From Vicinamibacterales bacterium (GTDB taxonomy: Bacteria > Acidobacteriota > Vicinamibacteria > Vicinamibacterales > UBA8438): 64,000 nucleotides of DNA. Within the stretch, counting starts at the first letter, position 1. Every line of letters begins with the position of its first letter. Positions 17,521-54,526 of the stretch are shown here, one piece after another. The DNA lies in contig JAPYUM010000009.1 in assembly GCA_029940535.1 (NCBI GenBank), positions 13,607 to 77,606 of the forward strand, given 5' to 3'. The translations under genes and the position numbers were made by a program. The notes under the pieces are model-generated. The model made no database searches, was not told the origin of the DNA, and was given only the letters and a program-made list of their open reading frames with translations.

Positions 17521-17574
17521 AACAGATTCCGTGGGGAGCAGCGGACCAGACCAGATAGCTTGATGGAGAAAGTC

Positions 17575-32839: not shown

Positions 32840-34129
32840 TTACGGCCCAACCCAGGCGGCGCTCAAGCCCGCGCGGTCGACGGCCTCGCCGCGGAGATAG
32901 ACGTTGGCGATGCGCCGGGTGTTGGTGATGTCGTCCAGCGGGTTGGCCTCCAGCACGACGAAATCGGCGCTCTTACCGGCCGCCAGCGTCCCCAGATCGG
33001 CAAGCGCCAACATCTCCGCCGAGTTACCGGTAGCCGCCACCAGTACGTCGGCCGGGCTCATGCCGGCGAGCACCATGTCTTCCATTTCGGTGTGGGGACT
33101 CCAACCCGCGCCGCCGTCGGTACCGAAGGCGATGGTGACCCCTTCGGCACTCAGTCGCGCGAGGTTACGGGCCTGGATGCCGAAGGCCTCCTGGGCGGCG
33201 GGACGGTCGACCGACCGCTCCTGCATCTGCTCGAGTTGGCCCGCCGGGATGGTACCGCTGAGCCAGCTCAGGTCGGCGGCCACACCGCTGCCGGGCAGAT
33301 TCGGCACCAGCACGACGTTCGGACGTTCCTTGAACAGCTCGACCACTTCGTCGTCGACGTCCATGTCGCGGATGCCGTGCGCGAAGGCGTCGAGGCCGGC
33401 ACGTAGCAGGCCCTTGGCATCTTCCAGCGTGTAGACATGCGCGGTGACCCTCAGGCCATTCTGGTGGGCCTCGTCGATGACCGCGCTGTAGAGCTCGGGT
33501 GAGAGTTTGCCGAACTGGCCGCCGCGGTCGTCGACCCAGATCTTCACCATATCGACATTCTGCGGCACGAGTTCCTGGACGGCGGCGCGGGCTTCTTCCT
33601 CCGTCGTGATCCAGGACGGCACTTCGGTCCGGCCTGGTTCCGGCGCCGTGATGCCTCGGCCGACGGTGCGATAGCGGGCCGCGTTCGGGAGGATCTCGTC
33701 CCGGAGCTGGAACGCCATTTCGCTTACGCCACGCCCCAGGCTCAGCACGACGCCGACACCGTAGTAGGCCTTCCGTTGCAAATCTTCGACCCGTTCGTCA
33801 CGCGTCTCTCTGAGGTGCACGTGGGTGTCGATGATGGCCGGCATCACCGTCCGGCCGGTGAGATCGACGCGAGCCGCCCCGGCGGGCACCTCCACGGCGT
33901 CGCCGCTGCCCACGGCGACGAGGCGGTCGTATTCGACCAGCAAGGTGCCGTTCTCGATGACCTGACCGTCTCCGATGATCAAGCGCGCCCCCTCATAGGC
34001 GATGGCGTCGGTGGCAGGGGTCTCTGGCTCGCTGGGAGGCGCGCCACACGCCGACACGAGTACGAGCGTGGACAGCAGGAGAGCCGGCGCGGCGATTGTG
34101 GGATGCGACGGGATGAGCAGACGACGCAT
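32840..34129 (-). CDS. Amidohydrolase-family metallohydrolase, lipoprotein
   Basis: GAGGAGG RBS and lipobox LVSACG. AIIDTHVHLRE HxH motif and a C-terminal GKSADFVVL...P pattern. Confidence 0.85.
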   Translation of the reverse strand: MRRLLIPSHPTIAAPALLLSTLVLVSACGAPPSEPETPATDAIAYEGARLIIGDGQVIENGTLLVEYDRLVAVGSGDAVEVPAGAARVDLTGRTVMPAIIDTHVHLRETRDERVEDLQRKAYYGVGVVLSLGRGVSEMAFQLRDEILPNAARYRTVGRGITAPEPGRTEVPSWITTEEEARAAVQELVPQNVDMVKIWVDDRGGQFGKLSPELYSAVIDEAHQNGLRVTAHVYTLEDAKGLLRAGLDAFAHGIRDMDVDDEVVELFKERPNVVLVPNLPGSGVAADLSWLSGTIPAGQLEQMQERSVDRPAAQEAFGIQARNLARLSAEGVTIAFGTDGGAGWSPHTEMEDMVLAGMSPADVLVAATGNSAEMLALADLGTLAAGKSADFVVLEANPLDDITNTRRIANVYLRGEAVDRAGLSAAWVGP

Positions 34130-34227
34130 GGCAGCCTCCTCGGGACAGTACCTAGAGATACAAAACGGGCCGACGCTGGAGGTCTTGCCAGCATCGGCCC
34201 GTGCCAACGACGGAATTCGGTCTAAGG

Positions 34228-35229
34228 CTACGGACGCAACTTACGACCCTGTCTCTCGAGTTCACGCGCGCCGGCCAGAATGCCGTGCATGCCGATGTTG
34301 CCTTCGTGACAGGCATACTCGAACAGGGGGCCGTCCGTGCGCCGGAACGGCATCATCACCGTGAACGGAGCGGTGTAGACCGTCGGGTCCGTCACGGTGT
34401 ACTCGTAGACCACTCTGTCCGCATTGACCCGGGTGAACCGCTCGACCAGATGCTTGTTGGGGCTGGTGCCGCGGCTTTCGCCCCCACGGAACTGGTCGGT
34501 CTCGACAACCATCGTGTCGCCTTCCCAGTGACCACGCGAGACGCCGGAGAACTGCTTGAACGGCGGTTTGGCGACATCGTCAATCGGGATGACCCGCGCG
34601 TTGTGCACCATCTCGTTGAGAATCACGAGGTGGTCTGGCGTCTGAAAGATCATGACGTTGTTGTTGTAGGCGCCCGACGACATCGGCGGGCCGGCGTTGA
34701 ACCCCATGATGCAGCGGTCCATCATGCTGCGGCTGGTATACGAGTCGTACCGGGCCGCGTTGCGCTCGTCCTCGGCTTCTTCGCTCTGTTCCCTCGGCGC
34801 CCTCACCCCGGGCACGCGTGGTGGCAGCCGTCCATTCGGCGGATCGACGACGAGCGAGGTCCGCTTGTCGTCGGTCAAGTCGATTCCGCGCTCGTACCAA
34901 AATTCGTTGTAGGAGAGCACGCCGCCCTCGGATCGAGGCTGATATCCAGCGCTTCGTGCGCCCGATTCGGGATCGAACAGGTCGCGATTCTGACGAGTGC
35001 GCTCCGACGCCTCGAATGCGGCCGCCGCCTCGGCCGACAGCGTTTCCTGGTCCTCGAACTGCCGAGGGCGCTGGTATGGCGTCAGTGTGCGAAACGTAAA
35101 AATCCCGGAGATGTCCGGCTGGCCATCTGGCCGGCGCATCGGCGCGTCGCTCTGGGCGTCGGCCGCGATCGGTGCCAGGGTCACGACAAGGGCCACCATG
35201 AACACGAGCGCGACGAATTTCTTGATCAT
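34228..35229 (-). CDS. Secreted protein of the uncharacterised family (paralog 2 of 4)
   Basis: GAGGAA RBS and a signal peptide. QPDISGIF, RTSLVVDPPNGRLPPR, DRC, GPPM, HWEGDTMVVETDQF, LVERF and FEYACHEGNIGM motifs. Confidence 0.85.
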   Translation of the reverse strand: MIKKFVALVFMVALVVTLAPIAADAQSDAPMRRPDGQPDISGIFTFRTLTPYQRPRQFEDQETLSAEAAAAFEASERTRQNRDLFDPESGARSAGYQPRSEGGVLSYNEFWYERGIDLTDDKRTSLVVDPPNGRLPPRVPGVRAPREQSEEAEDERNAARYDSYTSRSMMDRCIMGFNAGPPMSSGAYNNNVMIFQTPDHLVILNEMVHNARVIPIDDVAKPPFKQFSGVSRGHWEGDTMVVETDQFRGGESRGTSPNKHLVERFTRVNADRVVYEYTVTDPTVYTAPFTVMMPFRRTDGPLFEYACHEGNIGMHGILAGARELERQGRKLRP

Positions 35230-35392
35230 CTGTGTTCCTCTCAAGGGGCGTCGATGCCAAGCGCACCGAACCCGATCGCACCGCGACGTGAGCGACCGGC
35301 CCGCCATCCTGTCAGATAAATCTACACAAAATATTAAACGGTGGGCGTCTTGTATGCAAGCTGCGGGTCAGAGGTGAAACCTGATCGGGTCC

Positions 35393-36643
35393 TCACTCCG
35401 GTTCTAGGGTCGGGCTCCACTCGCGGGCGCGTTGCTCCGCGACGGCGAGCTGGTCCGGGGGCAGTTGTTGGGCGACGGTGTCTCGCCCCTGGCGCGCGCC
35501 CTCGCGGGCCGATCCGGTGCTGCCGGCGGCGGCCAGGCTCAGCCACACGTGGGCCGAGACGAAGTCCCGAGGGACGCCTTCGCCGTTGGCGTACATGATC
35601 CCGATATTCTGCTGGGCGGACGTTTCTCCCTGTTGGGCGGCCCGTTCGAACCAGCGTGCCGCCTCTGCGGCGTTCCGCTCGACACCGGTTCCGGCGTCGT
35701 AACTCATACCGAGATTGAACTGCGCTCGCGCGAAGCCGTGGTCCGCCGCGAGGTGCATCCACCGTATCGCTTCGCCCGGGTCCCGGGTCACACCCCGTCC
35801 ACTCATATACATGTTACCCAGGGCGAACTCGCCCTCCGCCGTGCCCTGGTCGGCCGCTCGTCTGATCCAGCGGACCGCCTCGGCGTCGTCTTCAGCCACC
35901 CCGGTACCCGCGTCATACAGATAGCCCAGGGTGACCTGCGCCGACGGGTCTCCCTGGACCGCGGCGAGCCGATACCACCGGAAGGCGAGCGAGGCGTCCG
36001 CGGGGACGCCGGCCCCCGTCTCGTACATGCTGGCCAACGTGATCTGGGCGGTGGCGTGGCCCTGCGCCGCCGCGCGCTCGACCCAGCGCGCCGCCTCGGC
36101 GCGATCCGCCTCGACCCCACGGCCATTGAAATACAGTTGTCCCAGGCCATATTGGGCTTCGGCATGGCCCTGGTCGGCCGCAAGCCGGTACCACCGTACC
36201 GCCTCGGCGTCGTCGCTGGTCCGCGTCGCACGCTCGGTTCCTTCCGCGTCCCGTGACAGGTCGGCGCCCTCGGCGTACAGACGTCCCAGCCTGAACTGCG
36301 CCTCCCAATGTCCCTGGTCTGCCGCCAGCCGATACCACCGCGCCGCGTCGGCGTCATCCTCACCGACGCCGGACCCCGTGTCATAGCGCACGCCAAGACT
36401 GTGCTGCGCGCCGGCGTGGCCCTGCTCCGCCGCCAGCCGATACCACCGCGCCGCTTCCTGGTCATCGCGCGGAACACCGGTCCCCGTCACGTATTGGCGC
36501 GCAAGGTTGTACTGGGCGGATGGATTCCCTTGCTCCGCTCGTTCCTGTAGCTCGGTGAGATCCCGCTGAGCGCGCAGCGGCGCGGTGGCTGCGGGTAACG
36601 TCAGGCAGGCCACGAGCCACGCGGTAACGGACCGAAAGGTCAC
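35393..36643 (-). CDS. Sel1-repeat (SLR/TPR-like) secreted protein, about 9-10 repeats
   Basis: Reiterated A.RWYRLAA.QG...AQ..LG..Y..G.GV..D units. The GTG start directly abuts the TAA stop of the upstream gene. Confidence 0.9.
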   Translation of the reverse strand: MTFRSVTAWLVACLTLPAATAPLRAQRDLTELQERAEQGNPSAQYNLARQYVTGTGVPRDDQEAARWYRLAAEQGHAGAQHSLGVRYDTGSGVGEDDADAARWYRLAADQGHWEAQFRLGRLYAEGADLSRDAEGTERATRTSDDAEAVRWYRLAADQGHAEAQYGLGQLYFNGRGVEADRAEAARWVERAAAQGHATAQITLASMYETGAGVPADASLAFRWYRLAAVQGDPSAQVTLGYLYDAGTGVAEDDAEAVRWIRRAADQGTAEGEFALGNMYMSGRGVTRDPGEAIRWMHLAADHGFARAQFNLGMSYDAGTGVERNAAEAARWFERAAQQGETSAQQNIGIMYANGEGVPRDFVSAHVWLSLAAAGSTGSAREGARQGRDTVAQQLPPDQLAVAEQRAREWSPTLEPE

Positions 36644-38329
36644 TTATCGTGCTCGGGTAATCGGGCTTGCGTCCGACAGACCCTCGCCCTCGGTGATCGT
36701 TATGATCTGGTCGGCCTCCACGGGGCCGATTTCGTCAATCTGATCGCCGGGCCAGACGACCTTGATGGCACTCACGGTCGTCGCCTCTCCAAGCCCGAAG
36801 GTCACGGGCAGCTCGCTTTGCGACAGGTAGCTGGACCCGGTCTTGACCAGCTGCCAACGTGTGTCGCCTGCGGCGGTGATCTCCACGCGGGCCCCGATGC
36901 CGTTTCGGTTCGCGGTGGTGCCGGTGAGGCGCACGCGAAGCAGGTGATTGGCATTGCCTCCATCGTTGCGCAGGATGCGGGCCGACCCGCCGTTGGCCGT
37001 CACGACCACGTCGAGGTCGCCATCGTTGTCGATATCGGCGTATGCGGCGCCGCGCCCGACCAGCGGTGTGGCCAGCGCGTTGCCATCGTCGCCCGCCACT
37101 TCTTCGAACCCGCCCTGCGCGTCGTTGCGGAACAGTTGCGGGCGCTGGGCGTGGGTCACTCGGTTTTGGACACGTTCGACCAGATCGTTGACATGGCCGT
37201 TGACGGCAAAGATGTCTGGCCAGCCGTCCAGGTCCACATCGAAGAAGAAGCAGCCGAACGTCAAACTCAGCAGCGAGGCACGACCAACCGCGGTCCGGGG
37301 CCCTTCGTCGATGAACAGGCCGCTGCCTTCGTTGTGATAAAGCGCCATCATCTCGGACGAAAAGTGTCCAATGATGAGGTCGGGTCGTCCAGAACGGTCG
37401 TAGTCGATGGCATCGACCCCCATGCCGGCCCGGGCCACACCAGCGTTACTGAACGCCACACCAGCCAGTACGCCGATATCCTCAAATGTGCCGTCGCCTC
37501 CGTTCTTGAACAGCATGTCCGGTTGCAGGTCGTTGGCCACGAACAGGTCCATCCAGCCATCGCTGTCGAAGTCGAGCATCGTCACACCCAGGGTCTTGGC
37601 GGATGGCGCTCGGAGGCCCGCGGCGGTGGTGACGTCCTGGAAGGTGCCGTTGCCCACGTTTCGATATAGCGTCGGGCTCTGGCCCTGGTACGACTCGGGG
37701 GTGCAGTACGACTTGGCGTCGTCGACAAACGGGCAAAAGAGGTCGGTCTCGGCCGACCACTCGACATAGTTGCCGACGAACAGATCGAGGTGGCCATCCT
37801 CGTCGTAGTCCAGCCACAGCGCGCTGGTTGAGAAGCCGGGGTCCCCGACGCCGGCTTCGGTCGTCACGTCCACAAAGTGCCCGTCACCCTGTCCTTTGAA
37901 CAGCCGATTCGGGCCCAGCGCCGTGACATACACATCGACGAAGCCGTCGTTGTCGAAGTCGGCTGCGGTGCCGCCCAGACCGTAGAGCGGCGTGTCGAGG
38001 CCAGACCCGGCGGTGATGTCCGTGAACGTGCCGTCGCCGGCATTGCGATACAGCGCAGCTGAGGTCGGTGGCCCCTGTTGTTCGGGCCAGGTCGTTCCGT
38101 TGACTAGTAGCAGGTCCTGCCAGCCGTCGGCGTCGACATCGAGCCAGACCGCGCCAGAGCCGAACGTTTCCGGCAAGTACTTCTCGCCGAACGCGCCGTT
38201 GTTGTGTGTGAAGCGGACACCCACCGACTCGGTGATGTCGGTCAAGACCACCGGACCTGCGGCCCGGACGGTCGCGAGTGCGGCGGCAGCGACAGCGGCG
38301 GCGATGGCAACGATCGGAGTCGGTTTCAT
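36644..38329 (-). CDS. FG-GAP/VCBS-repeat protein with ASPIC/UnbV C-terminal domain (CRTAC1-like)
   Basis: Signal peptide. Repeated DxDxDGxxD(L/V)(F/L)V motifs. C-terminal GIGARVEITAAGDTRWQLVKTGSSYLSQSE. Confidence 0.9.
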   Translation of the reverse strand: MKPTPIVAIAAAVAAAALATVRAAGPVVLTDITESVGVRFTHNNGAFGEKYLPETFGSGAVWLDVDADGWQDLLLVNGTTWPEQQGPPTSAALYRNAGDGTFTDITAGSGLDTPLYGLGGTAADFDNDGFVDVYVTALGPNRLFKGQGDGHFVDVTTEAGVGDPGFSTSALWLDYDEDGHLDLFVGNYVEWSAETDLFCPFVDDAKSYCTPESYQGQSPTLYRNVGNGTFQDVTTAAGLRAPSAKTLGVTMLDFDSDGWMDLFVANDLQPDMLFKNGGDGTFEDIGVLAGVAFSNAGVARAGMGVDAIDYDRSGRPDLIIGHFSSEMMALYHNEGSGLFIDEGPRTAVGRASLLSLTFGCFFFDVDLDGWPDIFAVNGHVNDLVERVQNRVTHAQRPQLFRNDAQGGFEEVAGDDGNALATPLVGRGAAYADIDNDGDLDVVVTANGGSARILRNDGGNANHLLRVRLTGTTANRNGIGARVEITAAGDTRWQLVKTGSSYLSQSELPVTFGLGEATTVSAIKVVWPGDQIDEIGPVEADQIITITEGEGLSDASPITRAR

Positions 38330-38456
38330 GGCGATACGCGGGTCGCGACGTGCGGTCAGAGCCCTGAGCGGGTCCTAACATTGTAGTGCCGCGGCTGATT
38401 TCGGAGACCGTCGGGTCGCAGCCGGTATAATTAGGCCGTTTTCCAGGAGGGTACAC

Positions 38457-39470
38457 ATGCGTAGCATCGTGCTCGTCGCCGCGGTCCTGTTTCTGGCCGT
38501 TCCCACCGTCGCGCGGTCCCAGGCTCCCGAGTCGTGGACCATACCGCGCACCCCGGATGGTCGACCCGATCTGCAGGGCCTTTGGACGACGCAGACATTT
38601 ACGCCGCTCCAGCGTCCCCCGCAGTTTGCCGGCCAGGAGTTCTTGACAGAGGATGAGGCCGCGTCACTGGCCGACGTGTTGACCGCCCCGGGTGTCGATC
38701 CGCTGCGCGGCCGAGCGTTCGCCGACGCGTTGGGCGATGACGCTGGGGCGCGAGACGGGGCCACGGTCCAGACGGATCCGACGCACTACGACAACTCGGT
38801 CTGGCTGCGGACACTGGACCCCAAAGGGCTGACGAGTCGGCGCACGTCGCTGATCGTCGATCCCCCGGATGGCCGGCTCCCGGCCCGGACCGAGGACGCC
38901 GCGGTACTGGCCGCCATGCGACGCGAGGCGCGGGGATTCGACAGCTACGAGAACCGGCCCGCCCAGGAGCGGTGTCTGGCCTGGAGCCACGAGGGTCCGC
39001 CGATGATGCCGCCACCCTACAACGACCTGTATCAAATTTTTCAGACCCCCGGCTATGTCGTCCTGTTCCCTGAAATGGCGAACAACCCGGCGCGCATCAT
39101 CTCCACCGACAATCGCGCCCACGTGTCGGACCGGATCCGTCAGTGGCCGGGGCACTCGGTGGGTCGATGGGACGGTGATACCCTCGTGGTCGACACCACG
39201 AACTTCACCATGAAGACTGGTTTCCAAGGCTCTGGCGACGGGTTGCATGTGGTCGAGCGATTCACCCGGGTCGCCGACGACCAGATTCGCTACGAGTTCA
39301 CGGTCGACGATGCGACAACGTGGACCCGGCCGTGGACCGTCGAGATGCCGATGATGCAGTCGGAAGGCCCCCTGTACGAATACACGTGTCACGAAGGGAA
39401 CTACGGCATGAGGAACACCATGCGAGGGGCACGCCTGGCCGACCGGCAGGCGGCCGACGGCCAGCGGTGA
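38457..39470 (+). CDS. Secreted protein of the uncharacterised family (paralog 3 of 4)
   Basis: AGGAGGG RBS and a signal peptide. RPDLQGLW, RTSLIVDPPDGRLPAR, ERC, GPPMM, RWDGDTLVVDTTNF, VVERF and YEYTCHEGNYGM motifs. Confidence 0.9.
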   Translation: MRSIVLVAAVLFLAVPTVARSQAPESWTIPRTPDGRPDLQGLWTTQTFTPLQRPPQFAGQEFLTEDEAASLADVLTAPGVDPLRGRAFADALGDDAGARDGATVQTDPTHYDNSVWLRTLDPKGLTSRRTSLIVDPPDGRLPARTEDAAVLAAMRREARGFDSYENRPAQERCLAWSHEGPPMMPPPYNDLYQIFQTPGYVVLFPEMANNPARIISTDNRAHVSDRIRQWPGHSVGRWDGDTLVVDTTNFTMKTGFQGSGDGLHVVERFTRVADDQIRYEFTVDDATTWTRPWTVEMPMMQSEGPLYEYTCHEGNYGMRNTMRGARLADRQAADGQR

Positions 39471-40927
39471 GCCGCCGACATCTCGCCTGGTCGTTGGTCG
39501 TGGTGGCGGCGCTCAGCACCGCGCTGTGCGCCCCGACGACGGATCGTGCCTGGCTGCCGGGCGACTCGCACATCCATAGTCATTGGAGCGCCGGTGCCGA
39601 CCGACGCCGGACACCGCCGACCCCCATCAAGGGACAGGACGCGCTGTATTCCACGCCGCGTAACGCGGTCATGGCACGCCAGTTCGGATTGCGCTGGATG
39701 GTGACCACGGACCATGGCGGCCCCGACCACGCGAAGCTGAATTTCATGCAGGCGCATCGGGAGCTCACGCTCTCTCGCGAGCTTGTGCCGGACCTGTTGC
39801 AGTTCTACGGCATGGAGCTGAACATGCCCGGCATGGATCACCACACCCTGATCATTCCCAACGCCGACGACGAAGCGACGGTGCTGCGCGAGATCGAGAG
39901 CCGGTTCGACGCGAACCAGGACTGGGCCCTGCCGCCCGATCCGGGGCGGCGGTCCGCCGAAGCGCGCCGGCGGGCACTGGCACATCTGCAATCGCTGGAG
40001 CGACTCCCGGTGCTGTTTGCCAATCATCCATCTCGGTCGGCGACCGGGATCGGGAAGTACGGCCTCGACGAGCCGTGGGAAATCCGCGAGAACAACGATC
40101 TGGCGTCTGATGTGTATAGGGGGATGGAGGGGGCACCGGGGCATCAAGCGTCGACACTGTCAGCCGACGGTAGCCGGCGGCCCGATCCACCAAGGGGACC
40201 ACCGCCAGGCCGAGGCGCCTATCGGAACCCCAACGCCCCGACCTTCGGCGGATTCGATCAAATGACAGCCAAGGTTGGCGGGTTCTGGGACTCGTTGTTG
40301 GGTGAGGGCCGCCGGTTCTGGGTCGTCGCCTCGTCCGACTCGCACGTGCACTACACGGACCCCGTGCGGCGGGGATCGGACTTCTGGCCGGGCGAGTTCC
40401 ACAAGACCTATGTGCTGGCCCGGCCCACATATGACGATGTCCTCGATGGATTGCGCCAAGGACGCGTCTTCGCGGCGGCGGGTGGCCTGGTGACCACGCT
40501 CGACGTCTCCGCCGCCGCTGGAGGGCGGCAGACCGGGGTTGGCGGTACGCTAGACGCGGCCGCGTCCGATTCTGTAGACGTGACCATACGGTTCACCGAT
40601 CCCGAGATAGAGAACGCCGCTGGTGAGGACCCGACGGTCCGACGAGTCGACCTGATCGTGGGCGAGACGCGCGGCCCGGCGTCGGCCCCACACCGTGATT
40701 GGAACTGGACCACGAAAGTCGTCGCACGATTCGGCCCGGCGGACTGGACGCGTGACGGCGACCGCTACACCGTGACCACCTCGTTGCCGGCCTCTGACGA
40801 GGACCGCTACCTTCGCGTGCGGGGCACCAGCACCGAGGCCCTCGAGCCAGCCCCTGATGAGCCGGGCGAGAACCCCTGGCACGACCTCTGGTTCTACTCG
40901 AACCCGATCTTCATCGAGGTCGAGTAG
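39467..40927 (+). CDS. PHP-domain / CehA-McbA-like metallohydrolase, exported
   Basis: The GTG start overlaps the stop of paralog 3 (GTGA). Hydrophobic leader. GDSHIHSHWS and VTTDHGG look like PHP-type metal ligands. The fold assignment is tentative. Confidence 0.7.
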   Translation: MSRRHLAWSLVVVAALSTALCAPTTDRAWLPGDSHIHSHWSAGADRRRTPPTPIKGQDALYSTPRNAVMARQFGLRWMVTTDHGGPDHAKLNFMQAHRELTLSRELVPDLLQFYGMELNMPGMDHHTLIIPNADDEATVLREIESRFDANQDWALPPDPGRRSAEARRRALAHLQSLERLPVLFANHPSRSATGIGKYGLDEPWEIRENNDLASDVYRGMEGAPGHQASTLSADGSRRPDPPRGPPPGRGAYRNPNAPTFGGFDQMTAKVGGFWDSLLGEGRRFWVVASSDSHVHYTDPVRRGSDFWPGEFHKTYVLARPTYDDVLDGLRQGRVFAAAGGLVTTLDVSAAAGGRQTGVGGTLDAAASDSVDVTIRFTDPEIENAAGEDPTVRRVDLIVGETRGPASAPHRDWNWTTKVVARFGPADWTRDGDRYTVTTSLPASDEDRYLRVRGTSTEALEPAPDEPGENPWHDLWFYSNPIFIEVE

Positions 40928-40942
40928 CGGACCGATGCCGCC

Positions 40943-41689
40943 TTGATTCTCGATCCCTGGTTCTATCTCGCGGCCTCGGTCGCCGTCCTGATCGCCGGCA
41001 TCGCCAAGGGCGGGTTGGGCGGTGGCATCGCGGTGGTCGGCGTGCCGCTGATGGCCATGGTCGTGAGCCCGGCGCAGGCCGCCGCGGTGCTCCTCCCCAT
41101 CTTGATGGTCATGGACGTGCTCGCCCTACATGCATACTGGGGCCGATGGGACCGCGGCAATCTGCGTGTCTTGTTGCCAGGTGCGTTGCTAGGCACGACC
41201 CTGGGGTTCCTGACGTTCGGCTATCTGTCGGACGACGGTCTCCGCGTGCTGGTGGCGGCGGTGGCGTTGACCTACGCGGTTCGATACTTCGCGGCGGCGG
41301 GGCCGACCGGGAAGCGACCGGCGTGGGCCCCGGCGGGGCTCTTCTGGGGGGCGTTGTCCGGTTTTACCAGTTTCTCGGTCCACGCGGGAGGGCCGCCGCT
41401 GCAGGCCTACCTGCTACCGCAGCAGATGCACCGGACGCTGTTTCAGGGCACCAGCGTCGTGTTCTTCTTCGTGGTGAACTGGTCCAAGGTGGTGCCGTAT
41501 GCGTGGCTTGGGCAGTGGACGCCGGACAATCTCCAGACCTCGCTCGTGTTGATGCCGTTGGCGCCGCTTGGTATCTGGATCGGTCGCCGCATCCATCTAC
41601 GGGTCAACGACGAGCTGTTCTTCCGCGTCGTGCATGCCTCGCTGTTTGTGATCGGGGTCAAGCTGCTGTACGACGTGGCGCCGTTGTAA
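40943..41689 (+). CDS. TauE/SafE (DUF81) family anion exporter
   Basis: TTG start. AGIAKGGLGGGIAVVGVPLM motif and 7-8 TM segments. Confidence 0.85.
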   Translation: MILDPWFYLAASVAVLIAGIAKGGLGGGIAVVGVPLMAMVVSPAQAAAVLLPILMVMDVLALHAYWGRWDRGNLRVLLPGALLGTTLGFLTFGYLSDDGLRVLVAAVALTYAVRYFAAAGPTGKRPAWAPAGLFWGALSGFTSFSVHAGGPPLQAYLLPQQMHRTLFQGTSVVFFFVVNWSKVVPYAWLGQWTPDNLQTSLVLMPLAPLGIWIGRRIHLRVNDELFFRVVHASLFVIGVKLLYDVAPL

Positions 41690-41792
41690 ACGCGCCTCCC
41701 ATGCGTGAGTCTTGACGGTCCGGGCCGAGGAGACGTGGCTGGACCTCTTGCGTGGTAGGGGCGGGCATCTTAACATTCACTAGGGAGATGCT

Positions 41793-44700
41793 ATGCGGAT
41801 GAGTCTTCGACGGTGTTCGGCGTTGCTGGCGGTGCTGGTGCTCGGTGGCGGCGCTCAGTCCGGCGGCGTGGGTGTCGCATGGGCGCAGGGGCCGGACTCG
41901 ACGGTCACGTTCAATCGTGATGTTCGGCCGATCCTCGCGGAGGGTTGTTACAACTGTCACGGGCCGAACGCCCCCACGCGGCAGGACGGGCTGCGGTTGG
42001 ATATTCCCGAAGGACCGCTCGCCGATCGTGGACGCTACGGTGGGCCGGTCATCGTGCCGGGCAACGCTGACGAGAGCCTGCTGATGCAGCGGGTCACCCA
42101 TGAGAGTGACAGCGCCCGGATGCCGCGAGGGCGCGCCGCGCTGCCGGACGACCAGATCGAGACGCTGCGTCGATGGATCGACCAAGGGGCGGAGTATCAG
42201 CCCCACTGGGCGTTCATCGCGCCCGAGCGCGTGGCGCCGCCGGCTGTGTCAGATGCCGAATGGCCTCGGAACTCCATCGATAATTTTCTGCTCGCCCGGC
42301 TCGAACAGGAAGGGCTGGCGCCGGCAGACGAGGCTGATCGCGCGACGCTGCTCCGTCGGGTGACCCTCGACCTCAGCGGCGTGCCGCCGACCCCGGCCGA
42401 ACTGACCGAGTTTCTGAACACGGACGCGGCTGACGCTTACGAGCAAGTGGTCGACCGGTTGTTGGACTCACCGCGCTACGGCGAGCGGATGGCGGCCGAG
42501 TGGCTCGATGCCGCACGCTATGCCGACACCAATGGGTATCAGACCGACGGGGAACGGCAGATGTGGCGATGGCGCGACTGGGTCATCGACGCCTACAACC
42601 ACAACATGCCGTTCGACCAGTTCACGATCGAGCAACTCGCGGGCGACATGCTGCCGGACGGGACCCTCGAGCAGAAAATCGCCACCGCCTTCAACCGGAA
42701 TCACAGCCAGAACGGCGAGGGAGGTATCGTCTCGGACGAATTCCTGCTCGAGTATGCGGTCGATCGGGTCGCCACGACCGGGACGGTGTGGATGGGACTC
42801 ACGCTGGGGTGTGCGCGTTGCCACGACCACAAGTTCGACCCGATCACGCAAAAAGAGTTCTACGAGGTCCTGGCCAACTTCAACAACATTCCGGAGCGCG
42901 GGAAGGCCTTCAAGTATGTCAATTCGCCGCCGCTGGTGACCGCCCCGACCCTCGAACAGCAGGCGGAGATCGGCGAACTGGATGCGGAGTTGATCGAAGC
43001 GCGCGCGGCGCTGACAGCGCTCGATGCGGACGCCGCCGCAGCCCGAGCGGAGTGGGAGGCGTCGCTCGCCTCTGCGGGTCGCGTCGACTGGTCGCTCCGA
43101 GACGGGTTGCTCGCCTATCACGCGTTTGAAGGCGACCTGGCGGGCACGCAGACGACGGTCGATATTCCGGCGGTCCTCGAAGACGGGCAGCCATCTTTCG
43201 TGCCGGGTCGGGTCGGCACCGCGGCCAGCTTTGACGGCGAGCGATTCGTCAACGCCGGGACCAGCCCCGACCTCGGCTATGACGACGCGTTCAGCCTGGC
43301 GGCGTGGATTTACCCGACCGCGTCCGACGGCGTCATCGTCTCGCGCGCGAGCGCCGGAGACCAGGGCGAGGTCGGGTGGGGTCTCTACCTCGAGGATGGC
43401 AAGGTTCGACTGAGTCTGTCCACGCGGGTGCTCGACGATGGCGTCGCGGCGGAGACGACCGTCGACGTCGTGCTGAATCAGTGGCAGCACGTGGTGGCGA
43501 CCTACGACGGGTCGAAGACGCCGGGTGGTATGCGGGTCTATTTCGATGGCGTGGCGCAAGCGTTGACGCCGCTCCTGGACCTGGTCGGCAACCGCCTGCC
43601 GATGCGTTATCCGCTCCGCATCGGGGCCAGCGGCTCGGACAAGCCACGCTTCCAGGGGCACATCGACGACCTGCGTATCTACGACCGCGTGTTGCCGGCG
43701 CTCCACGCCGCCGTGGTTGCGACCCCGGAGCCGATCAGCGACATTGCGGCAATGGCTCCGGCCCAGCGCGACGCCGCGCAGGCCGAGAAGTTGCGGCTGG
43801 CCTTTTTTACGCAGTACGCGCCGACCGAGATCCTGGCCGCATCGCGCGCCGTCAGCGAGCTCGAGCGTCAGCGCGAGGCCCTGTGGGCCACCTATCCGAC
43901 CGTCATGGTGATGGAAGAGATGGCGGAGCGTCGTCCGACGTTCCGGCTCAATCGTGGCGCCTACGATAGCCCGGCCGAGGAGGTCTTCCCGGGGGTGCCC
44001 GCGGCGTTGCCGCCCTTGCCGGCGGGGACCGAGGCCAACCGACTCTCGTTCGCGAAGTGGCTCGTCGACCCGGCGCATCCGTTGACCGCGCGGGTGACCG
44101 TGAATCGGTTTTGGCAGATGTACTTCGGCACCGGCATCGTCAAGACCGCCGAGAACTTCGGGACCCAGGGTGAGTTTCCGACCCACCCGGCGTTGCTGGA
44201 CTGGCTGGCGACTTCGTTCATCGACTCCGGGTGGGACGTCAAGGCCCTGCAACGGGCGATTGTCAACAGTGCCGCTTACCGGCAGGCCTCGAACATGACG
44301 CCGGCGGAGTTCGAGCGCGACCCGGAGAACCGTCTTGTGGCGCGAGGCCCGCGTCTTCGACTCGACGCGGAGATCATTCGAGACCAGGCCCTGTCGCTGT
44401 CCGGCCTCCTCGTCGAGGAGGTGGGGGGGCCGTCCGTGAAGCCATACCAGCCTGAGGGGCTGTGGACCGACATGGTGGAAGGCGGCTACGGCGACTATGT
44501 CGAGGCCGAGGGGGATGATCTTTATCGTCGCAGTCTGTACACCTTCTGGAAGCGGACCCTGGGCCCGCCCACGATGATGACCTTCGACTCGTCCACGCGC
44601 GAAGTCTGTATCGTGCGGACCGGCGTCACGAACACGCCGATGCAGGCGCTCAGCCTGATGAACGACGTGACCTACGTCGAGGCGGCACGCCGACTGGCGG

Positions 44701-44981
44701 AGCGGATGATGACCGAGGGGGGTGAGACGCCGGACGAGCGCATCGCGTACGCCTACCTGCTGGCGACGGCACACCGGCCCCCGCCACGGGCGGCGGACAT
44801 TCTCGTCCAAGGCTACGGCCGTCATTTCGAGCGCTACCAGGCCGACCGGGCGGCGGCGCTGGCGCTGGTGACCCAGGGACAGTCCGTCCGCGATCAGACC
44901 CTGGACGTCGCGGAGCTGGCGTCCTACACGATGGTGGCCAATCTCATTCTGAATTTCGACGGAACCATTACAAAGGAATAG
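41793..44981 (+). CDS. PSCyt1 haem-c + DUF1549 + LamG-like + DUF1553 giant secreted protein
   Basis: FNRDVRPILAEGCYNCHGPN provides a CxxCH haem site. DNFLLARLE is DUF1549-like. The central block (WQHVVATYDG...IDDLRIYDRVL) is concanavalin/LamG-like. The C-terminal part (TNTPMQAL) is DUF1553-like. Confidence 0.9.
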   Translation: MRMSLRRCSALLAVLVLGGGAQSGGVGVAWAQGPDSTVTFNRDVRPILAEGCYNCHGPNAPTRQDGLRLDIPEGPLADRGRYGGPVIVPGNADESLLMQRVTHESDSARMPRGRAALPDDQIETLRRWIDQGAEYQPHWAFIAPERVAPPAVSDAEWPRNSIDNFLLARLEQEGLAPADEADRATLLRRVTLDLSGVPPTPAELTEFLNTDAADAYEQVVDRLLDSPRYGERMAAEWLDAARYADTNGYQTDGERQMWRWRDWVIDAYNHNMPFDQFTIEQLAGDMLPDGTLEQKIATAFNRNHSQNGEGGIVSDEFLLEYAVDRVATTGTVWMGLTLGCARCHDHKFDPITQKEFYEVLANFNNIPERGKAFKYVNSPPLVTAPTLEQQAEIGELDAELIEARAALTALDADAAAARAEWEASLASAGRVDWSLRDGLLAYHAFEGDLAGTQTTVDIPAVLEDGQPSFVPGRVGTAASFDGERFVNAGTSPDLGYDDAFSLAAWIYPTASDGVIVSRASAGDQGEVGWGLYLEDGKVRLSLSTRVLDDGVAAETTVDVVLNQWQHVVATYDGSKTPGGMRVYFDGVAQALTPLLDLVGNRLPMRYPLRIGASGSDKPRFQGHIDDLRIYDRVLPALHAAVVATPEPISDIAAMAPAQRDAAQAEKLRLAFFTQYAPTEILAASRAVSELERQREALWATYPTVMVMEEMAERRPTFRLNRGAYDSPAEEVFPGVPAALPPLPAGTEANRLSFAKWLVDPAHPLTARVTVNRFWQMYFGTGIVKTAENFGTQGEFPTHPALLDWLATSFIDSGWDVKALQRAIVNSAAYRQASNMTPAEFERDPENRLVARGPRLRLDAEIIRDQALSLSGLLVEEVGGPSVKPYQPEGLWTDMVEGGYGDYVEAEGDDLYRRSLYTFWKRTLGPPTMMTFDSSTREVCIVRTGVTNTPMQALSLMNDVTYVEAARRLAERMMTEGGETPDERIAYAYLLATAHRPPPRAADILVQGYGRHFERYQADRAAALALVTQGQSVRDQTLDVAELASYTMVANLILNFDGTITKE

Positions 44982-44983
44982 CG

Positions 44984-46441
44984 ATGGAATCGCGCCTCGA
45001 CCAGTTGCTCGCCCGTCGACGCTTCCTCGAGTTGGCCGGTACCGGCATCGGCTCAGCCGCGCTGGCCTCGCTGTTCGGCCAGGACCTGCTGGCGCAGACG
45101 TCAGGCGCGACATCGGCCGCCGTTGGTGCGTTGCCCGGGTTGCCGCACCATGCCCCGAAGGCGAAGCGGATCATCTATCTGTTTCAGTCGGGGGCGCCGT
45201 CACAGCACGAGCTCTGGGACTACAAGCCGACGCTGCGGGAGCGGATGGGCGAAGATCTGCCGCCATCGGTACGTGGCGATCAGCGTGTGACCACCATGAC
45301 GGCGGGCCAAGAGCGCTTTCCGCTGGTGCCGTCAAAGTTCAGGTTCGCGCAGCACGGTCAGTCGCGGGCCTGGGTCAGCGACCTGATGCCGCACACCGCC
45401 AAGATCGTCGATGAACTGTGCTTCATCAAGTCGATGCACACCGAGGCGATCAACCACGACCCCGGTATTACCTTCTTTCAGACCGGAGCGCAGTTGGCCG
45501 GCCGCCCCAGCATGGGCGCCTGGCTGTCCTACGGCCTCGGGAGTCTGAACTCCGACCTGCCGACCTTCGTGGCGCTGGTCTCGAAGGGGTCGGCGCAAAC
45601 CGGTCAGCCGCTCTACGACCGACTCTGGGGCAGCGGGTTTCTCCCCTCGCGGTATCAGGGCGTGAAGTTTCTTTCGACCGGCGACCCGGTCCTCTATCTG
45701 TCGAATCCGCCAGGGGTCGATCAGGACACGCGCCGCCGTTTTCTCGACGACCTGGGCGCCCTCAACGGTCTGAAAGAGGAGGAGTTCGGCGACCCCGAGA
45801 CGAGCACGCGTATCTCCCAGTACGAGATGGCGTATCGCATGCAGACCTCCGTGCCTGAACTGGCCGACCTGTCGGATGAACCGGAGAGCACCTTCGAGCT
45901 CTACGGACCCGATGCGCGTGAGCCCGGCACCTTCGCTCGCAATTGTCTCCTGGCCCGACGACTGGCCGAGCGCGACGTGCGTTTTGTGCAGTGCTTTCAC
46001 CGTGGGTGGGATCAGCACACCCGGCTGCCTCAGGGCATCGAGCGGCAGGCGCAGGACGTTGATCAGGCCCAGGCGGCGCTCGTGCAGGACCTGAAGAATC
46101 GCGGGATGCTGGATGACACCCTTGTCGTCTGGGGTGGCGAGTTCGGTCGCAGCGCCTACAGCCAGGGGGTCCTGACCGAGGAGACCTACGGGCGCGACCA
46201 TCACCCCCGCGCGTTCACCATCTGGATGGCGGGTGGGGGGGTCAAGCCGGGCATCACTTACGGCGAGACCGATGAGTTCTCCTACAACATCACCAGCAAT
46301 CCGGTGCATATCCATGACCTGCACGCCACCATGCTGCACCTGCTCGGTATCGACCACACCAAGCTGACCTATCCGTTCCAGGGACGTAACTTCCGACTGA
46401 CCGATGTGTCCGGACGTGTCGTGCAGGACGTCCTAGCCTAG
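44984..46441 (+). CDS. DUF1501 (sulfatase/phosphatase-fold) protein with TAT leader
   Basis: LLARRRFLELAGTGIGSAALASL twin-arginine leader. GGEFGR, GRDHHP and HIHDLHATMLHLLGIDH motifs. Starts 2 nt after the upstream gene. Confidence 0.9.
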   Translation: MESRLDQLLARRRFLELAGTGIGSAALASLFGQDLLAQTSGATSAAVGALPGLPHHAPKAKRIIYLFQSGAPSQHELWDYKPTLRERMGEDLPPSVRGDQRVTTMTAGQERFPLVPSKFRFAQHGQSRAWVSDLMPHTAKIVDELCFIKSMHTEAINHDPGITFFQTGAQLAGRPSMGAWLSYGLGSLNSDLPTFVALVSKGSAQTGQPLYDRLWGSGFLPSRYQGVKFLSTGDPVLYLSNPPGVDQDTRRRFLDDLGALNGLKEEEFGDPETSTRISQYEMAYRMQTSVPELADLSDEPESTFELYGPDAREPGTFARNCLLARRLAERDVRFVQCFHRGWDQHTRLPQGIERQAQDVDQAQAALVQDLKNRGMLDDTLVVWGGEFGRSAYSQGVLTEETYGRDHHPRAFTIWMAGGGVKPGITYGETDEFSYNITSNPVHIHDLHATMLHLLGIDHTKLTYPFQGRNFRLTDVSGRVVQDVLA

Positions 46442-49806: not shown

Positions 49807-49992
49807 GGCAACTCTCCTCGAATGCGGGTTAAGGGTGCGGGCCGCCCAGTGACGGCCAATATGATTCCTGTCACGATATCATTTTCACTTGAGACGACGC
49901 CTCCAGGGTGACGCCGGTCGCGCTCAGCGGCGCCTGGACGTGAGAGAATTGTGTCGAGATCTCGGCATGCGATCTGTTTCAGGGAGAGACAC

Positions 49993-50964
49993 ATGAGGAC
50001 GCGGACTGACGGCGCGCGATCGGTGGTGCGGATGGTGTCCGGTTTGATTGCGGGACCGGTGCTAGCCGCGGTGGCGGCGGTATTGATTGCGCCGGACGTG
50101 GCGGTCGGTCAAACTGGCCCCCGAGACCTGCAGGGCGTCTGGGATTTTCGAAGCGTGGTGCCATTCGAACGACCTGACGAGCTGGTCGGGAAAGACACCT
50201 TGACCCCGGAAGAGGCGGCCGCGTTCGCCCAGGAGCGTGTGGACGCGCTGAACGTCGATTTGCGGCGTGACGAGAATGGCCGGGTGCCACTGTCGGGGGG
50301 CTACAACAATTTCTGGTACGACCGCGGGAACTCGCTCGGTGATGAGCGTCGCACCTCATTGGTGGTGGATCCGCCCGATGGGAAGCTGCCAGCCCGGACC
50401 GAGGCGGCGCGGGCCAGAGGCGCCGCGCGAGGCGCGCTCCTGGGTCGTGACGCGTTTGGTCCGGAAGACCGAGGCGCGTTCGAGCGCTGTATTCTCGGGT
50501 TCAACTCCGGTCCGCCCATGAATCCCAGCGCCTACAACAACAACATGCAGCTGTTTCAGACCGACAATCACATCGTCATCCTGAACGAGATGGTCCACGA
50601 CTCGCGCATCATCCCGCTCGATGGGTCAGCGCATCTCCCAGGCGATGTCCGTCAATGGATGGGCGACTCTCGCGGCCGCTGGGACGGCGACACGCTGGTG
50701 GTGGAGACTCGTAACTTCACCGGGAAGACCAGTGTCCGTGGGTCGGGCCCGGAGATGCGGCTGGTCGAGCGATTCACCCGGGCCGACGCCGACACGCTCG
50801 TCTACGAATACACCGTCAGCGACCCCGCGTCATTCGCGCAACCGTGGTCGGTCAGGACCGCCATGCGCAAGTCGGACGCGCAGGTCTACGAGTACGCATG
50901 CCACGAAGGCAACTACGGCATGCAGAACCTGCTGGTTGCCGCCCGCGGCGCCGAGCAGCCGTAG
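49993..50964 (+). CDS. Secreted protein of the uncharacterised family (paralog 4 of 4)
   Basis: AGGGAGAG RBS and a signal/anchor segment. PRDLQGVW, RTSLVVDPPDGKLPAR, ERC, GPPM, RWDGDTLVVETRNF, LVERF and YEYACHEGNYGM motifs. Confidence 0.9.
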   Translation: MRTRTDGARSVVRMVSGLIAGPVLAAVAAVLIAPDVAVGQTGPRDLQGVWDFRSVVPFERPDELVGKDTLTPEEAAAFAQERVDALNVDLRRDENGRVPLSGGYNNFWYDRGNSLGDERRTSLVVDPPDGKLPARTEAARARGAARGALLGRDAFGPEDRGAFERCILGFNSGPPMNPSAYNNNMQLFQTDNHIVILNEMVHDSRIIPLDGSAHLPGDVRQWMGDSRGRWDGDTLVVETRNFTGKTSVRGSGPEMRLVERFTRADADTLVYEYTVSDPASFAQPWSVRTAMRKSDAQVYEYACHEGNYGMQNLLVAARGAEQP

Positions 50965-50979
50965 AAGCTGGAGCGCCTG

Positions 50980-54359: not shown

Positions 54360-54526
54360 CCGGCCTCCGTTGGGCCCGGAAGGATGGAGATGGCAACGTG
54401 GCACCTCCGACACTCCGGCCGATGGGCAGGCCCGGCTGATCGAGGTGCCTTCAGTCCGCAACTGCTACAATCGTCCATCCAGCGACCGCGTCACGAAGGT
54501 GCCGCTTGCTACCAGGGAGACTCGCC

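What the first reader, a model, noticed from the sequence alone, without database searches (positions are those of the whole stretch)
38457..46441. Operon: family paralog, PHP-like hydrolase, TauE exporter, PSCyt/DUF1549/LamG/DUF1553 giant protein, DUF1501
Five same-strand genes have tight junctions: a GTGA overlap at 39467, a 15-nt gap to the TauE gene, about 100 nt to the giant haem-c protein, and 2 nt to DUF1501. The DUF1549/DUF1553 plus DUF1501 pair is widespread in Planctomycetes-like genomes and has no established function. Here it is preceded by a member of the uncharacterised family and a metallohydrolase. The locus at 49993-55309 has the same logic, which argues for a functional module rather than chance adjacency.
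Basis: partly seen in the sequence, partly recalled or inferred. Interest (0 to 1): 0.7.

Follow-up and report, generated by a model that had tools for sequence, protein, structure and literature searches.

The report
Two adjacent periplasmic gene units, not one operon
The five genes are real and tightly packed, but they look like two separate units placed side by side in one lineage of Acidobacteria: a known cytochrome/DUF1501 pair of unknown function, and a trio led by a member of a very large secreted protein family that no database describes.

Summary
All five genes, their domains and their junctions are as described (GTGA overlap, then gaps of 15, 103 and 2 nt).

The claimed functional module of family paralog plus DUF1553/DUF1501 is only partly supported:
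- The five-gene order holds in relatives whose family protein is 70-93% identical. It is lost in the 61-64% identical relatives examined.
- None of 80 diverse loci carrying the family has a DUF1501 gene within 10 kb.
- None of 4 orthologous DUF1553/DUF1501 pairs in other genomes has the family, the hydrolase or TauE upstream.
- A promoter-like element (TTGCnn-N17-TAnnAT) lies just upstream of the cytochrome gene whatever gene precedes it, including at window 41748-41776.
- A separate conserved GGTATAAT box precedes the family gene.

The best reading is two units:
1. Family protein, CehA-like PHP metallohydrolase and TauE permease.
2. The already described autonomous pair of a PSCyt/DUF1549/LamG/DUF1553 cytochrome and a TAT-exported DUF1501 protein.

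All the soluble products carry export signals.

The more novel object is the family itself. It has about 27,000 clusters at 50% identity, no Pfam or NCBIfam model and no significant match to any solved structure. Copies sit in arrays of up to seven. Its commonest neighbour is DUF6152, followed by assorted enzymes, mostly hydrolases. Its function is unknown.

The parts
38426..38431 (+). TATAAT box within a conserved CCGGTATAAT motif, 25 nt upstream of the family gene. Candidate promoter of unit 1.
   Evidence: Sequence read. GGTATAAT (GATATAAT in L166, TATATAAT in L087/L088) is conserved upstream of the family orthologs in L095, L081, L098, L100, L086, L166, L115, L101 and L116. Function is inferred, not shown.
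38457..39470 (+). Paralog C of a large unannotated secreted family: 337 aa, Sec signal peptide, two invariant Cys, C-H-E-x-N motif.
   Evidence: No Pfam or NCBIfam hit. 27,443 clusters at 50% identity. AlphaFold2 model pLDDT 80.2 with no PDB match at E<1e-3.
39467..40927 (+). Secreted metallohydrolase, PHP-type and distantly CehA/McbA-like (486 aa).
   Evidence: NF038032 at 66 bits, below the 80-bit cut-off. Invariant HxH...DxH histidine/aspartate set. Signal peptide. No PDB relative by sequence.
40943..41689 (+). TauE/SafE (TSUP) family membrane permease.
   Evidence: Pfam PF01925, 121.9 bits. Directly downstream of CehA-like genes in 11/15 loci where CehA is >=64% identical.
41748..41776 (+). 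Promoter-like element TTGCGT-N17-TAACAT, ending 16 nt before the cytochrome gene.
   Evidence: The same TTGCnn-N17-TAnnAT element lies upstream of orthologous cytochrome genes in 9 other loci whose upstream genes differ. The hexamers are conserved and the spacer varies. Only 2 matches occur in the 64-kb window against 0.5 expected. Activity not shown.
41793..44981 (+). Secreted protein with two CxxCH haem-c motifs: PSCyt1, DUF1549 (PSCyt2), Laminin_G_3, DUF1553 (PSD1).
   Evidence: Pfam. CxxCH at C52 and C340, and a signal peptide.
44984..46441 (+). DUF1501 protein with a twin-arginine (TAT) signal. Faint similarity to alkaline-phosphatase/sulfatase-superfamily enzymes.
   Evidence: Pfam 520 bits. 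RRRFLE motif. Weak PDB sequence hits to LtaS and arylsulfatase, E 0.05-0.9. One source names a relative 'sulfatase'.
32840..38329 (-). Divergent minus-strand block conserved with the locus: FG-GAP/ASPIC-UnbV (36644-38329), Sel1 repeats (35393-36643), family paralog B (34228-35307), amidohydrolase (32840-34207).
   Evidence: Pfam. The block is conserved in L081-L086, L095, L100, L115 and L116. L082, L083 and L100 lack the amidohydrolase.
49951..55309 (+). Analogous second locus: family paralog D (49951 or 49993 to 50964), PSCyt1 + DUF1587/1595/1592/1588/1585 cytochrome (50980-53001), TAT-DUF1552 (53001-54359), metallo-beta-lactamase-fold protein (54506-55309).
   Evidence: Pfam. TAT motif SRRTVLQ. 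It follows the DUF1501 gene closely in L084, L085, L089 and L108, with no gene or a single small gene between them.
17560..18726 (+). Family paralog A (388 aa, with an insertion).
   Evidence: tblastn and HMM hits.

Best explanation
The five genes are two juxtaposed units rather than one dedicated module.

**Unit 1 (38457-41689)**
- It encodes a secreted member of a very large unannotated family, a secreted PHP-type (CehA-like) metallohydrolase and a TauE/TSUP inner-membrane permease.
- It is preceded by a conserved TATAAT box.
- The trio stays together only in one clade, which appears to be mostly marine Vicinamibacteria-like Acidobacteriota.

**Unit 2 (41748-46441)**
- This is the widespread two-gene pair already described in the literature: a PSCyt1/DUF1549/LamG/DUF1553 protein with two haem-c motifs and a TAT-exported DUF1501 protein.
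- It carries its own conserved promoter-like element.
- The same pair, with 76-83% identical DUF1501, occurs in unrelated gene contexts in other genomes.

**Inferred mechanism (not shown)**
- Every soluble product is exported, so the chemistry takes place in the periplasm.
- In unit 1 the family protein has a calycin-like barrel with an invariant polar pocket. It acts with the metal-dependent hydrolase on some ester-type organic substrate.
- TauE then moves a small anion, either product or substrate, across the inner membrane.
- Unit 2 is an independent periplasmic system. A LamG module binds the substrate, two haems carry electrons, and a cofactor-bearing, sulfatase-like DUF1501 enzyme does the catalysis.
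- The units lie together because this lineage gathers periplasmic scavenging genes in one region, not because the family protein is a subunit of the DUF1553/DUF1501 system.
For: **Architecture**
- Domains and export signals were determined.

**Clade-limited synteny**
- For CehA at >=64% identity, the family gene is directly upstream in 12/15 loci, TauE is directly downstream in 11/15, and DUF1549/1553 lies within 3 kb downstream in only 3/7.
- Below 64% identity the counts are 1/34, 0/37 and 0/27.
- Family orthologs at 70-83% identity keep the block. Those at 61-64% do not.

**Unit 2 is dispensable**
- L116, L115 and L109 lack it.
- L084 has an extra family gene inserted exactly at the TauE/cytochrome junction.

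**Unit 2 is autonomous**
- Four orthologous pairs (L175-L178) always have the cytochrome gene directly upstream of DUF1501. None has the family, CehA or TauE adjacent.
- The literature already defines this pair as a module (PMC3542564, PMC5615132).

**Separate promoters**
- TTGCnn-N17-TAnnAT is conserved upstream of the cytochrome gene in 10 loci with different upstream genes.
- GGTATAAT is conserved upstream of the family gene.

**The family is not tied to DUF1501**
- 0 of 80 loci have a DUF1501 gene within 10 kb.
- Its commonest close same-strand neighbour is DUF6152 (14/61), followed by assorted enzymes, mostly hydrolases.

**Family plus metal-hydrolase pairing recurs**
- In the window, paralog B is followed by an amidohydrolase and paralog C by the CehA-like gene. 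Paralog D shares its locus with a metallo-beta-lactamase-fold protein.
- Elsewhere: L020 (family, amidohydrolase), L045 and L116 (family, metallo-beta-lactamase fold), and L112/L113 and L135 (other family subgroups next to CehA).
Against: - No terminator or stable hairpin lies in the 103-nt gap, so read-through from TauE into the cytochrome gene cannot be excluded.
- Promoter activity is inferred from conservation only.
- The full five-gene order persists down to about 70% identity in marine lineages (L089/L090).
- L135 shows an independent, differently ordered tight cluster of DUF1553, DUF1501, a family-like gene and a CehA-like gene.
- In L084, and at window 49951-53001, a family gene sits directly upstream of a PSCyt-type gene.
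- 12-15 of 80 family loci have a DUF1592-type/DUF1552 pair within 10 kb. I could not test this against a genome-wide background.
- The biochemical roles are inference. No substrate is known for any component.
Confidence: 0.6

Rival explanations
1. All five genes form one operon encoding a single periplasmic machine, in which the family protein and the hydrolase are dedicated accessories of the DUF1553/DUF1501 pair. The second locus is a parallel machine.
For: - Gaps are tight and there is no terminator.
- The order is conserved in relatives with 70-93% identical family proteins.
- L135 independently clusters all four families.
- Family genes lie directly upstream of PSCyt-type genes in L084 and at window 49951.
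Against: - 0 of 80 family loci have DUF1501 within 10 kb.
- 0 of 4 orthologous pairs have these neighbours.
- The pair is absent from L116, L115 and L109, which keep the trio or duo.
- A conserved internal promoter-like element lies in the 103-nt gap.
- The second locus uses a different cytochrome/partner pair.
Confidence: 0.15
2. There is no functional link at all. The order simply reflects shared ancestry among close relatives in genomes that hold very many copies of the family, so even family-CehA-TauE is neutral synteny.
For: - The family is highly multicopy: a mean of 2.1 and up to 7 copies per 20 kb around a member, and 4 copies in this window.
- All the associations disappear outside one clade.
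- The neighbours of the family are very heterogeneous.
Against: - The trio survives rearrangements that remove flanking genes. L089 lacks the FG-GAP and Sel1 genes, and L116 lacks the pair.
- Overlapping or near-overlapping stop and start codons link the family and hydrolase genes.
- Three different family subgroups lie next to CehA-like genes: the main clade, L112/L113 and L135.
Confidence: 0.15
3. The region is an organosulfur island for scavenging sulfonates or sulfate esters. The sulfatase-like DUF1501 releases sulfate or sulfite from a bound substrate. TauE exports sulfite or a sulfonate. The adjacent SsuA/TauABC-like transporter and the sulfurtransferase-like gene complete the pathway.
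For: - TauE family genes occur twice, at 40943 and 58625.
- An SsuA/TauC/TauB-like ABC transporter and a TIGR01244-like sulfurtransferase domain lie at 46536-49806(-).
- An FGE-sulfatase domain gene lies at 19304-20341.
- DUF1501 has weak arylsulfatase and LtaS similarity.
Against: - All the NCBIfam sulfur-related hits are far below their curated cut-offs.
- The ABC block is on the opposite strand. It is absent from L084, L089 and L108, where the two PSCyt pairs are contiguous.
- TSUP permeases have varied substrates (general knowledge).
- The FGE-domain protein's best matches are to GldK/EgtB-type proteins, not to a sulfatase maturase.
Confidence: 0.1

Closest known systems
DUF1501 + PSCyt1/PSCyt2(DUF1549)/PSD1(DUF1553) module of Planctomycetes and Verrucomicrobia (Kamneva et al. 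2012, PMC3542564; He et al. 2017, PMC5615132)
   Same: Same domain order, including the optional Laminin_G_3. CxxCH motifs are present. A DUF1501 gene with a twin-arginine signal lies immediately downstream.
   Different: Here the pair is in Acidobacteriota. It lies downstream of a family/hydrolase/TauE trio in one clade. It has a conserved promoter-like element that the papers read here do not mention. Function is unknown in every case.
PSCyt3-type (DUF1587/1595/1592/1588/1585) + DUF1552 pair (He et al. 2017)
   Same: The second locus (50980-54359) has exactly this pairing, with a TAT signal on DUF1552.
   Different: This is not the pair named in the finding. In the window a family paralog sits 15 nt upstream of it, which is not a general feature: direct same-strand adjacency was seen in 0 of about 15 loci that have the pair.
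CehA/McbA carbamate (carbaryl/carbofuran) hydrolases, NCBIfam NF038032
   Same: A secreted enzyme with a PHP-like histidine-rich metal site. The C-terminal half aligns to the model.
   Different: The score is below the curated cut-off (66 against 80 bits). The N-terminal half does not match. No Pfam PHP hit. The substrate is unknown. The gene is chromosomal rather than on a transposon.
TauE/SafE sulfite/sulfoacetate exporters (TSUP family, PF01925)
   Same: A clear Pfam member. It is about 250 aa long, as expected for this membrane-protein family.
   Different: No taurine or sulfoacetate pathway genes lie beside it. Its partner here is a periplasmic hydrolase.
Calycin-type beta-barrels (fatty-acid-binding proteins, lipocalins)
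   Same: The C-terminal ~117 residues of the family model superpose on FABP barrels at TM about 0.5. One family member is fused to a Lipocalin_5 domain.
   Different: No significant match (best E 2e-3). There is a ~190-residue N-terminal region with no counterpart. An invariant polar set and the C...CHExN motif are absent from FABPs.

Membership tests
PSCyt/DUF1549/DUF1553 + DUF1501 module (Kamneva 2012) | One protein carrying PSCyt1, PSCyt2 (DUF1549) and PSD1 (DUF1553). | tested here: met
   Pfam E-values 1e-11, 5e-86 and 2e-96.
PSCyt/DUF1549/DUF1553 + DUF1501 module (Kamneva 2012) | A DUF1501 gene immediately adjacent on the same strand. | tested here: met
   2-nt gap. The same adjacency is seen in L175-L178.
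PSCyt/DUF1549/DUF1553 + DUF1501 module (Kamneva 2012) | Haem-c binding motifs in the cytochrome, and a twin-arginine signal on DUF1501. | tested here: met
   CYNCH at residue 52 and CARCH at residue 340. LLARRRFLELAG in DUF1501. Haem attachment itself cannot be tested here.
CehA/McbA family metallohydrolase (NF038032) | Whole-protein score at or above NCBI's curated cut-off of 80 bits. | tested here: not met
   66 bits. Only residues 272-484 align, to model positions 158-315.
PHP-type metal-dependent hydrolase | A conserved His/Asp/Glu metal-ligand set: HxH, H, E, H, H, DxH. | tested here: inconclusive
   H35/H37, D82-H83, E117, H125, H187, H226 and D291-x-H293 are invariant in 34 homologs. 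There is no Pfam PHP hit and no structure was predicted for this protein.
TauE/SafE (PF01925) | Pfam gathering score met over the full model length. | tested here: met
   121.9 bits against 32.6, model positions 3-237 of 237. Substrate not testable.
Single operon of five genes | Same strand, short gaps and no internal terminator. | tested here: met
   Gaps of -4, 15, 103 and 2 nt. No terminator-like site in the gaps.
Single operon of five genes | A single promoter and co-transcription. | tested here: inconclusive
   A conserved promoter-like element at 41748-41776 argues for a second start. Transcription cannot be measured with these tools.
Conserved functional module of family protein + DUF1553/DUF1501 | Co-occurrence across the families beyond close relatives. 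| tested here: not met
   0/80 family loci have DUF1501. 0/4 orthologous pairs have the family adjacent. The one independent exception is L135.
Calycin/FABP-like fold (family protein) | A significant structural match to a solved barrel. | tested here: inconclusive
   Foldseek best E 2e-3, target-normalised TM 0.46-0.54, over about 117 residues only.

The most novel reading that the evidence does not exclude
The unannotated secreted family is a new class of periplasmic enzyme or cofactor-binding barrel protein that works with neighbouring exported enzymes. These include the CehA-like hydrolase, amidohydrolase and metallo-beta-lactamase-fold proteins, the N-terminal-His protein DUF6152 and, in some lineages, the PSCyt/DUF1501 and PSCyt/DUF1552 systems. 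If so, this locus would give the first experimental handle on what the long-unexplained PSCyt modules act on.
Probability: 0.12. Interest if true: 0.75.

Novelty: new variant of a known kind. Interest (0 to 1): 0.4.

Why it matters
**The PSCyt pairs.** The PSCyt/DUF1501 and PSCyt/DUF1552 pairs are among the most abundant unexplained gene pairs in Planctomycetes, Verrucomicrobia and Acidobacteria. Showing that this pair is autonomous and has its own promoter warns against inferring its function from these particular neighbours. It also narrows what an experiment should target.

**The family.** The family protein belongs to a very large group: about 27,000 clusters at 50% identity, in arrays of up to seven copies. 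The group is missing from Pfam and NCBIfam and has no significant match among solved structures. That is a sizeable gap in the annotation of soil and marine Acidobacteriota, which are major degraders of organic matter.

**Testable pairings.** Its recurrent pairing with DUF6152 and with exported hydrolases gives concrete hypotheses to test.

Tried and rejected
**Searches that found nothing useful**
- PDB sequence searches with single proteins and with profiles found nothing for the family or the hydrolase. For DUF1501 and the cytochrome they gave only noise-level hits.
- Two AlphaFold2 models of the family protein (pLDDT 66.9, then 80.2) gave no Foldseek PDB match at E<1e-3.
- Pfam at E<=10 found nothing for the four paralogs or the hydrolase.
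- Rfam found nothing in the whole window.
- The repeat search over 38000-47000 found only chance-level short repeats.
- The consensus promoter/terminator scan found nothing in the intergenic gaps. Folding the TauE-cytochrome gap gave z = -0.9.
- The literature search found no paper containing both DUF1553 and DUF1501, and none mentioning DUF6152.

**Method correction**
- Plain tblastn with the window DUF1501 missed a divergent DUF1501 in L091. I repeated the census with jackhmmer, which does find it.

**Not established**
- Whether the 12-15/80 co-occurrence with DUF1552 pairs exceeds background. Whole genomes could not be scanned.
- The distances are spread evenly from 0.7 to 9 kb, which suggests regional clustering rather than operon linkage.

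**Rejected**
- The 881-aa antisense ORF at 42468-45113 is not a gene. It lies wholly opposite the cytochrome gene and did not pass the third-codon-position G+C filter.

Full report
**1. What is there**

The window is 65% G+C. Five plus-strand ORFs lie at 38457-39470, 39467-40927, 40943-41689, 41793-44981 and 44984-46441. The junctions are a 4-nt GTGA overlap, then gaps of 15, 103 and 2 nt, read directly from the sequence.

- Pfam confirms TauE, PSCyt1 + DUF1549 + Laminin_G_3 + DUF1553, and DUF1501.
- The first gene has no Pfam or NCBIfam match.
- The second gene has only a partial, sub-threshold match to NCBIfam CehA/McbA metallohydrolase, 66 bits against a cut-off of 80. An HxH...DxH set of His/Asp/Glu residues is invariant in 34 homologs. 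CehA and McbA are carbamate ester hydrolases with signal peptides (McbA is shown to be periplasmic), and essential histidines lie in McbA's PHP-like domain (PMC8292978).
- The family protein, the hydrolase and the 1062-aa protein have Sec-type signal peptides.
- DUF1501 has a twin-arginine motif (RRRFLE).
- The 1062-aa protein has two CxxCH motifs.

So every soluble product is exported, and TauE is the only integral membrane component. No Rfam family, notable repeat or terminator lies in the region.

**2. The paralog family**

Four copies at 39-44% identity lie in the window.

A profile search of 1.84 billion cluster representatives finds 27,443 at E<=1e-3 and 3,419 at E<=1e-30.
- Hosts: mainly Vicinamibacterales, Bryobacterales and other Acidobacteriota, plus a few gammaproteobacterial MAGs.
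- Copy number: copies are often in tandem, with a mean of 2.1 and up to 7 per 20-kb locus.
- Invariant residues across 149 sequences include R53, N113, W116, R172-C173, Y188-N189, E206, R213, W238, E267, Y279, D285 and C311-x-E313-x-N315, with H312 nearly invariant.
- Structure: an AlphaFold2 model from that alignment has pLDDT 80.2 and pTM 0.79. It shows an N-terminal region with several short helices, an eight-strand antiparallel sheet and a long C-terminal helix. Foldseek finds nothing in the PDB at E<1e-3. Only about 117 C-terminal residues resemble fatty-acid-binding-protein barrels, at TM about 0.5.
- Variants: stand-alone homologs of the barrel half exist. One member is fused to a Lipocalin_5 domain.

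I infer a calycin-like barrel with a conserved polar pocket, which fits an enzyme or cofactor binder better than a carrier of variable ligands. This is inference.

**3. Test from the family side**

In 80 diverse family loci with 10-kb flanks, a jackhmmer search sensitive enough to detect a divergent DUF1501 gave the counts below.

| Neighbour within 10 kb | Loci out of 80 |
|---|---|
| DUF1501 | 0 |
| TauE | 0 |
| CehA-like | 0 |
| DUF1552 | 12 |
| DUF1592-type cytochrome | 15 |
| Amidohydrolase | 17 |

- The DUF1552 pairs are rarely adjacent, and their distances are spread evenly over 0.7-9 kb. I could not compare this with a genome-wide background.
- Among 61 same-strand neighbours within 150 nt, the commonest is Pfam DUF6152 (14). 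Next come PQQ dehydrogenases, esterases, lipases, tannase, amidase, beta-lactamase, epoxide hydrolase and peptidases.

**4. Test among orthologs**

- Family orthologs at 70-83% identity (P0002, P0003, P0004, P0024) keep family, CehA, TauE and the cytochrome in that order. DUF1501 follows wherever the contig reaches that far. The divergent block of FG-GAP, Sel1, paralog B and amidohydrolase is wholly or partly kept, and a DUF1592-type gene often follows DUF1501.
- P0022 (70%) is rearranged beside a transposase. P0071 (64%) and P0112 (61%) have none of these neighbours.

**5. Test from the hydrolase side**

Eighty metagenome loci were examined.

| CehA identity | Family directly upstream | TauE directly downstream | DUF1549/1553 within 3 kb downstream |
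|---|---|---|---|
| >=64% | 12/15 | 11/15 | 3/7 |
| 55-64% | 1/27 | 0/29 | 0/22 |
| <55% | 0/7 | 0/8 | 0/5 |

- L116 has family, CehA, TauE, family and a metallo-beta-lactamase-fold gene, with no cytochrome pair. L115 and L109 also lack the pair.
- L084 has an extra family gene inserted exactly at the TauE/cytochrome junction.

The stable core is therefore the trio, and the pair is a facultative neighbour.

**6. Test from the DUF1501 side**

- DUF1501 is very conserved, at 76-94% identity, including in a MAG labelled Gemmatimonadetes.
- In four contexts (L175-L178) the PSCyt1/PSCyt2/LamG/PSD1 gene is always directly upstream of DUF1501. The flanks are unrelated (MerR, a K+ channel, acetyl-CoA synthetase, a divergent DUF1552 pair), and none has the family, CehA or TauE adjacent.
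- Only L176 has family genes nearby, 4.6 kb away on the other strand.
- This matches the published description of the pair as a self-contained module of unknown function.

**7. Promoter evidence**

- A TTGCnn-N17-TAnnAT element (often cTTGCgt...GCCTACCAT) ends 16-50 nt upstream of the cytochrome start codon in the window (41748-41776) and in L081, L084, L089, L095, L096, L108, L176, L177 and L178.
- In the alignment the hexamers are conserved and the spacer varies.
- The pattern occurs only twice in the 64-kb window, against 0.5 expected. The other copy lies just upstream of paralog B.
- Upstream of the family gene, a different motif, GGTATAAT, is conserved among orthologs (window 38426-31).
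- No terminator follows TauE, so read-through remains possible.

**8. Counter-evidence**

L135 (freshwater metagenome contig) carries DUF1553, DUF1501, a divergent 260-aa family member and a CehA-like gene (59% identical). The last three junctions are only 2-5 nt wide and the order is different. Its DUF1501 is only 41% identical to the window's. This is one independent recurrence, and it keeps the module idea alive at low probability. Family-CehA adjacency involves three different family subgroups: the main clade, L112/L113 and L135. That supports a family-hydrolase link more than a family-DUF1501 link.

**9. Verdict**

- The locus is best read as two units lying next to each other.
- The pair is already known, and the arrangement is a lineage-specific variant.
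- The most interesting by-products are the size and anonymity of the family, its pairing with DUF6152, and the conserved promoter-like element of the cytochrome pair.

Noticed in passing
L001-L080 (e.g. L012:10873-11268, L047:1261-1698, L079:10970-11395): Pfam DUF6152 is the commonest gene directly downstream of family members. There are 31 copies in the 80 loci and none in the window. After signal-peptide cleavage its mature N-terminus would be HHAF(S/A)AEFD, and it has a W(I/V)NPH motif, which looks like a metal site using an N-terminal histidine. No paper mentions DUF6152.
   Followed up: partly
L014:10001-10381, L016:10001-10378, L057:580-969 and others: Short genes of about 130-170 aa are homologous to residues ~190-313 of the family protein, that is the barrel half up to the CHE motif. 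They often lie just upstream of a full-length copy.
   Followed up: partly
window 35331-35359 (-): This is the only other TTGCnn-N17-TAnnAT match in the window. It lies between the Sel1 gene and paralog B, suggesting that paralog B and the amidohydrolase also have their own promoter.
   Followed up: no
window 46536-49806 (-): An ABC transporter with SsuA/TauC/TauB-like components and a DUF442/TIGR01244-like sulfurtransferase domain gene, all below curated cut-offs. The block separates the two PSCyt loci here and probably in L096, but is absent from L084, L089 and L108, where DUF1501 is followed closely by the DUF1592-type gene.
   Followed up: partly
L175-L178; proteins P0391-P0510: Relatives of this DUF1501 in the search are 76-94% identical, including one in a MAG labelled Gemmatimonadetes. 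The DUF1553/DUF1501 pair often lies near a DUF1592-type/DUF1552 pair (window, L084, L089, L108, L177, L178). This points to very strong constraint or to transfer between phyla.
   Followed up: no
L135:2-4301: An independent tight cluster of DUF1553, DUF1501, a divergent 260-aa family member and a CehA-like gene, in a different order from the window.
   Followed up: yes
proteins P0326, P0253, P0121, P0122: Fusions of the family domain: one with a C-terminal Lipocalin_5 domain, one with an N-terminal squalene-hopene-cyclase-like repeat domain, and two proteins of about 640 aa that score nearly twice the bits of single-copy members and so probably hold two copies.
   Followed up: partly
window 10212-10601 (+) and 31640-32280 (+): Two PIN-domain genes. 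The second overlaps a small upstream ORF by 4 nt, which is the layout of a VapBC-type toxin-antitoxin pair.
   Followed up: no
window 19304-20341 (-), 55341-58496 (-), 58625-59344 (+): An FGE-sulfatase-domain protein near paralog A, whose best NCBIfam hits are GldK/EgtB-like and far below cut-off. Also an AcrB-type efflux pump and a second TauE-family permease.
   Followed up: no
window 42468-45113 (-): An 881-aa antisense ORF lies wholly opposite the cytochrome gene. It did not pass the third-codon-position G+C filter and is probably a shadow ORF typical of high-G+C DNA.
   Followed up: partly
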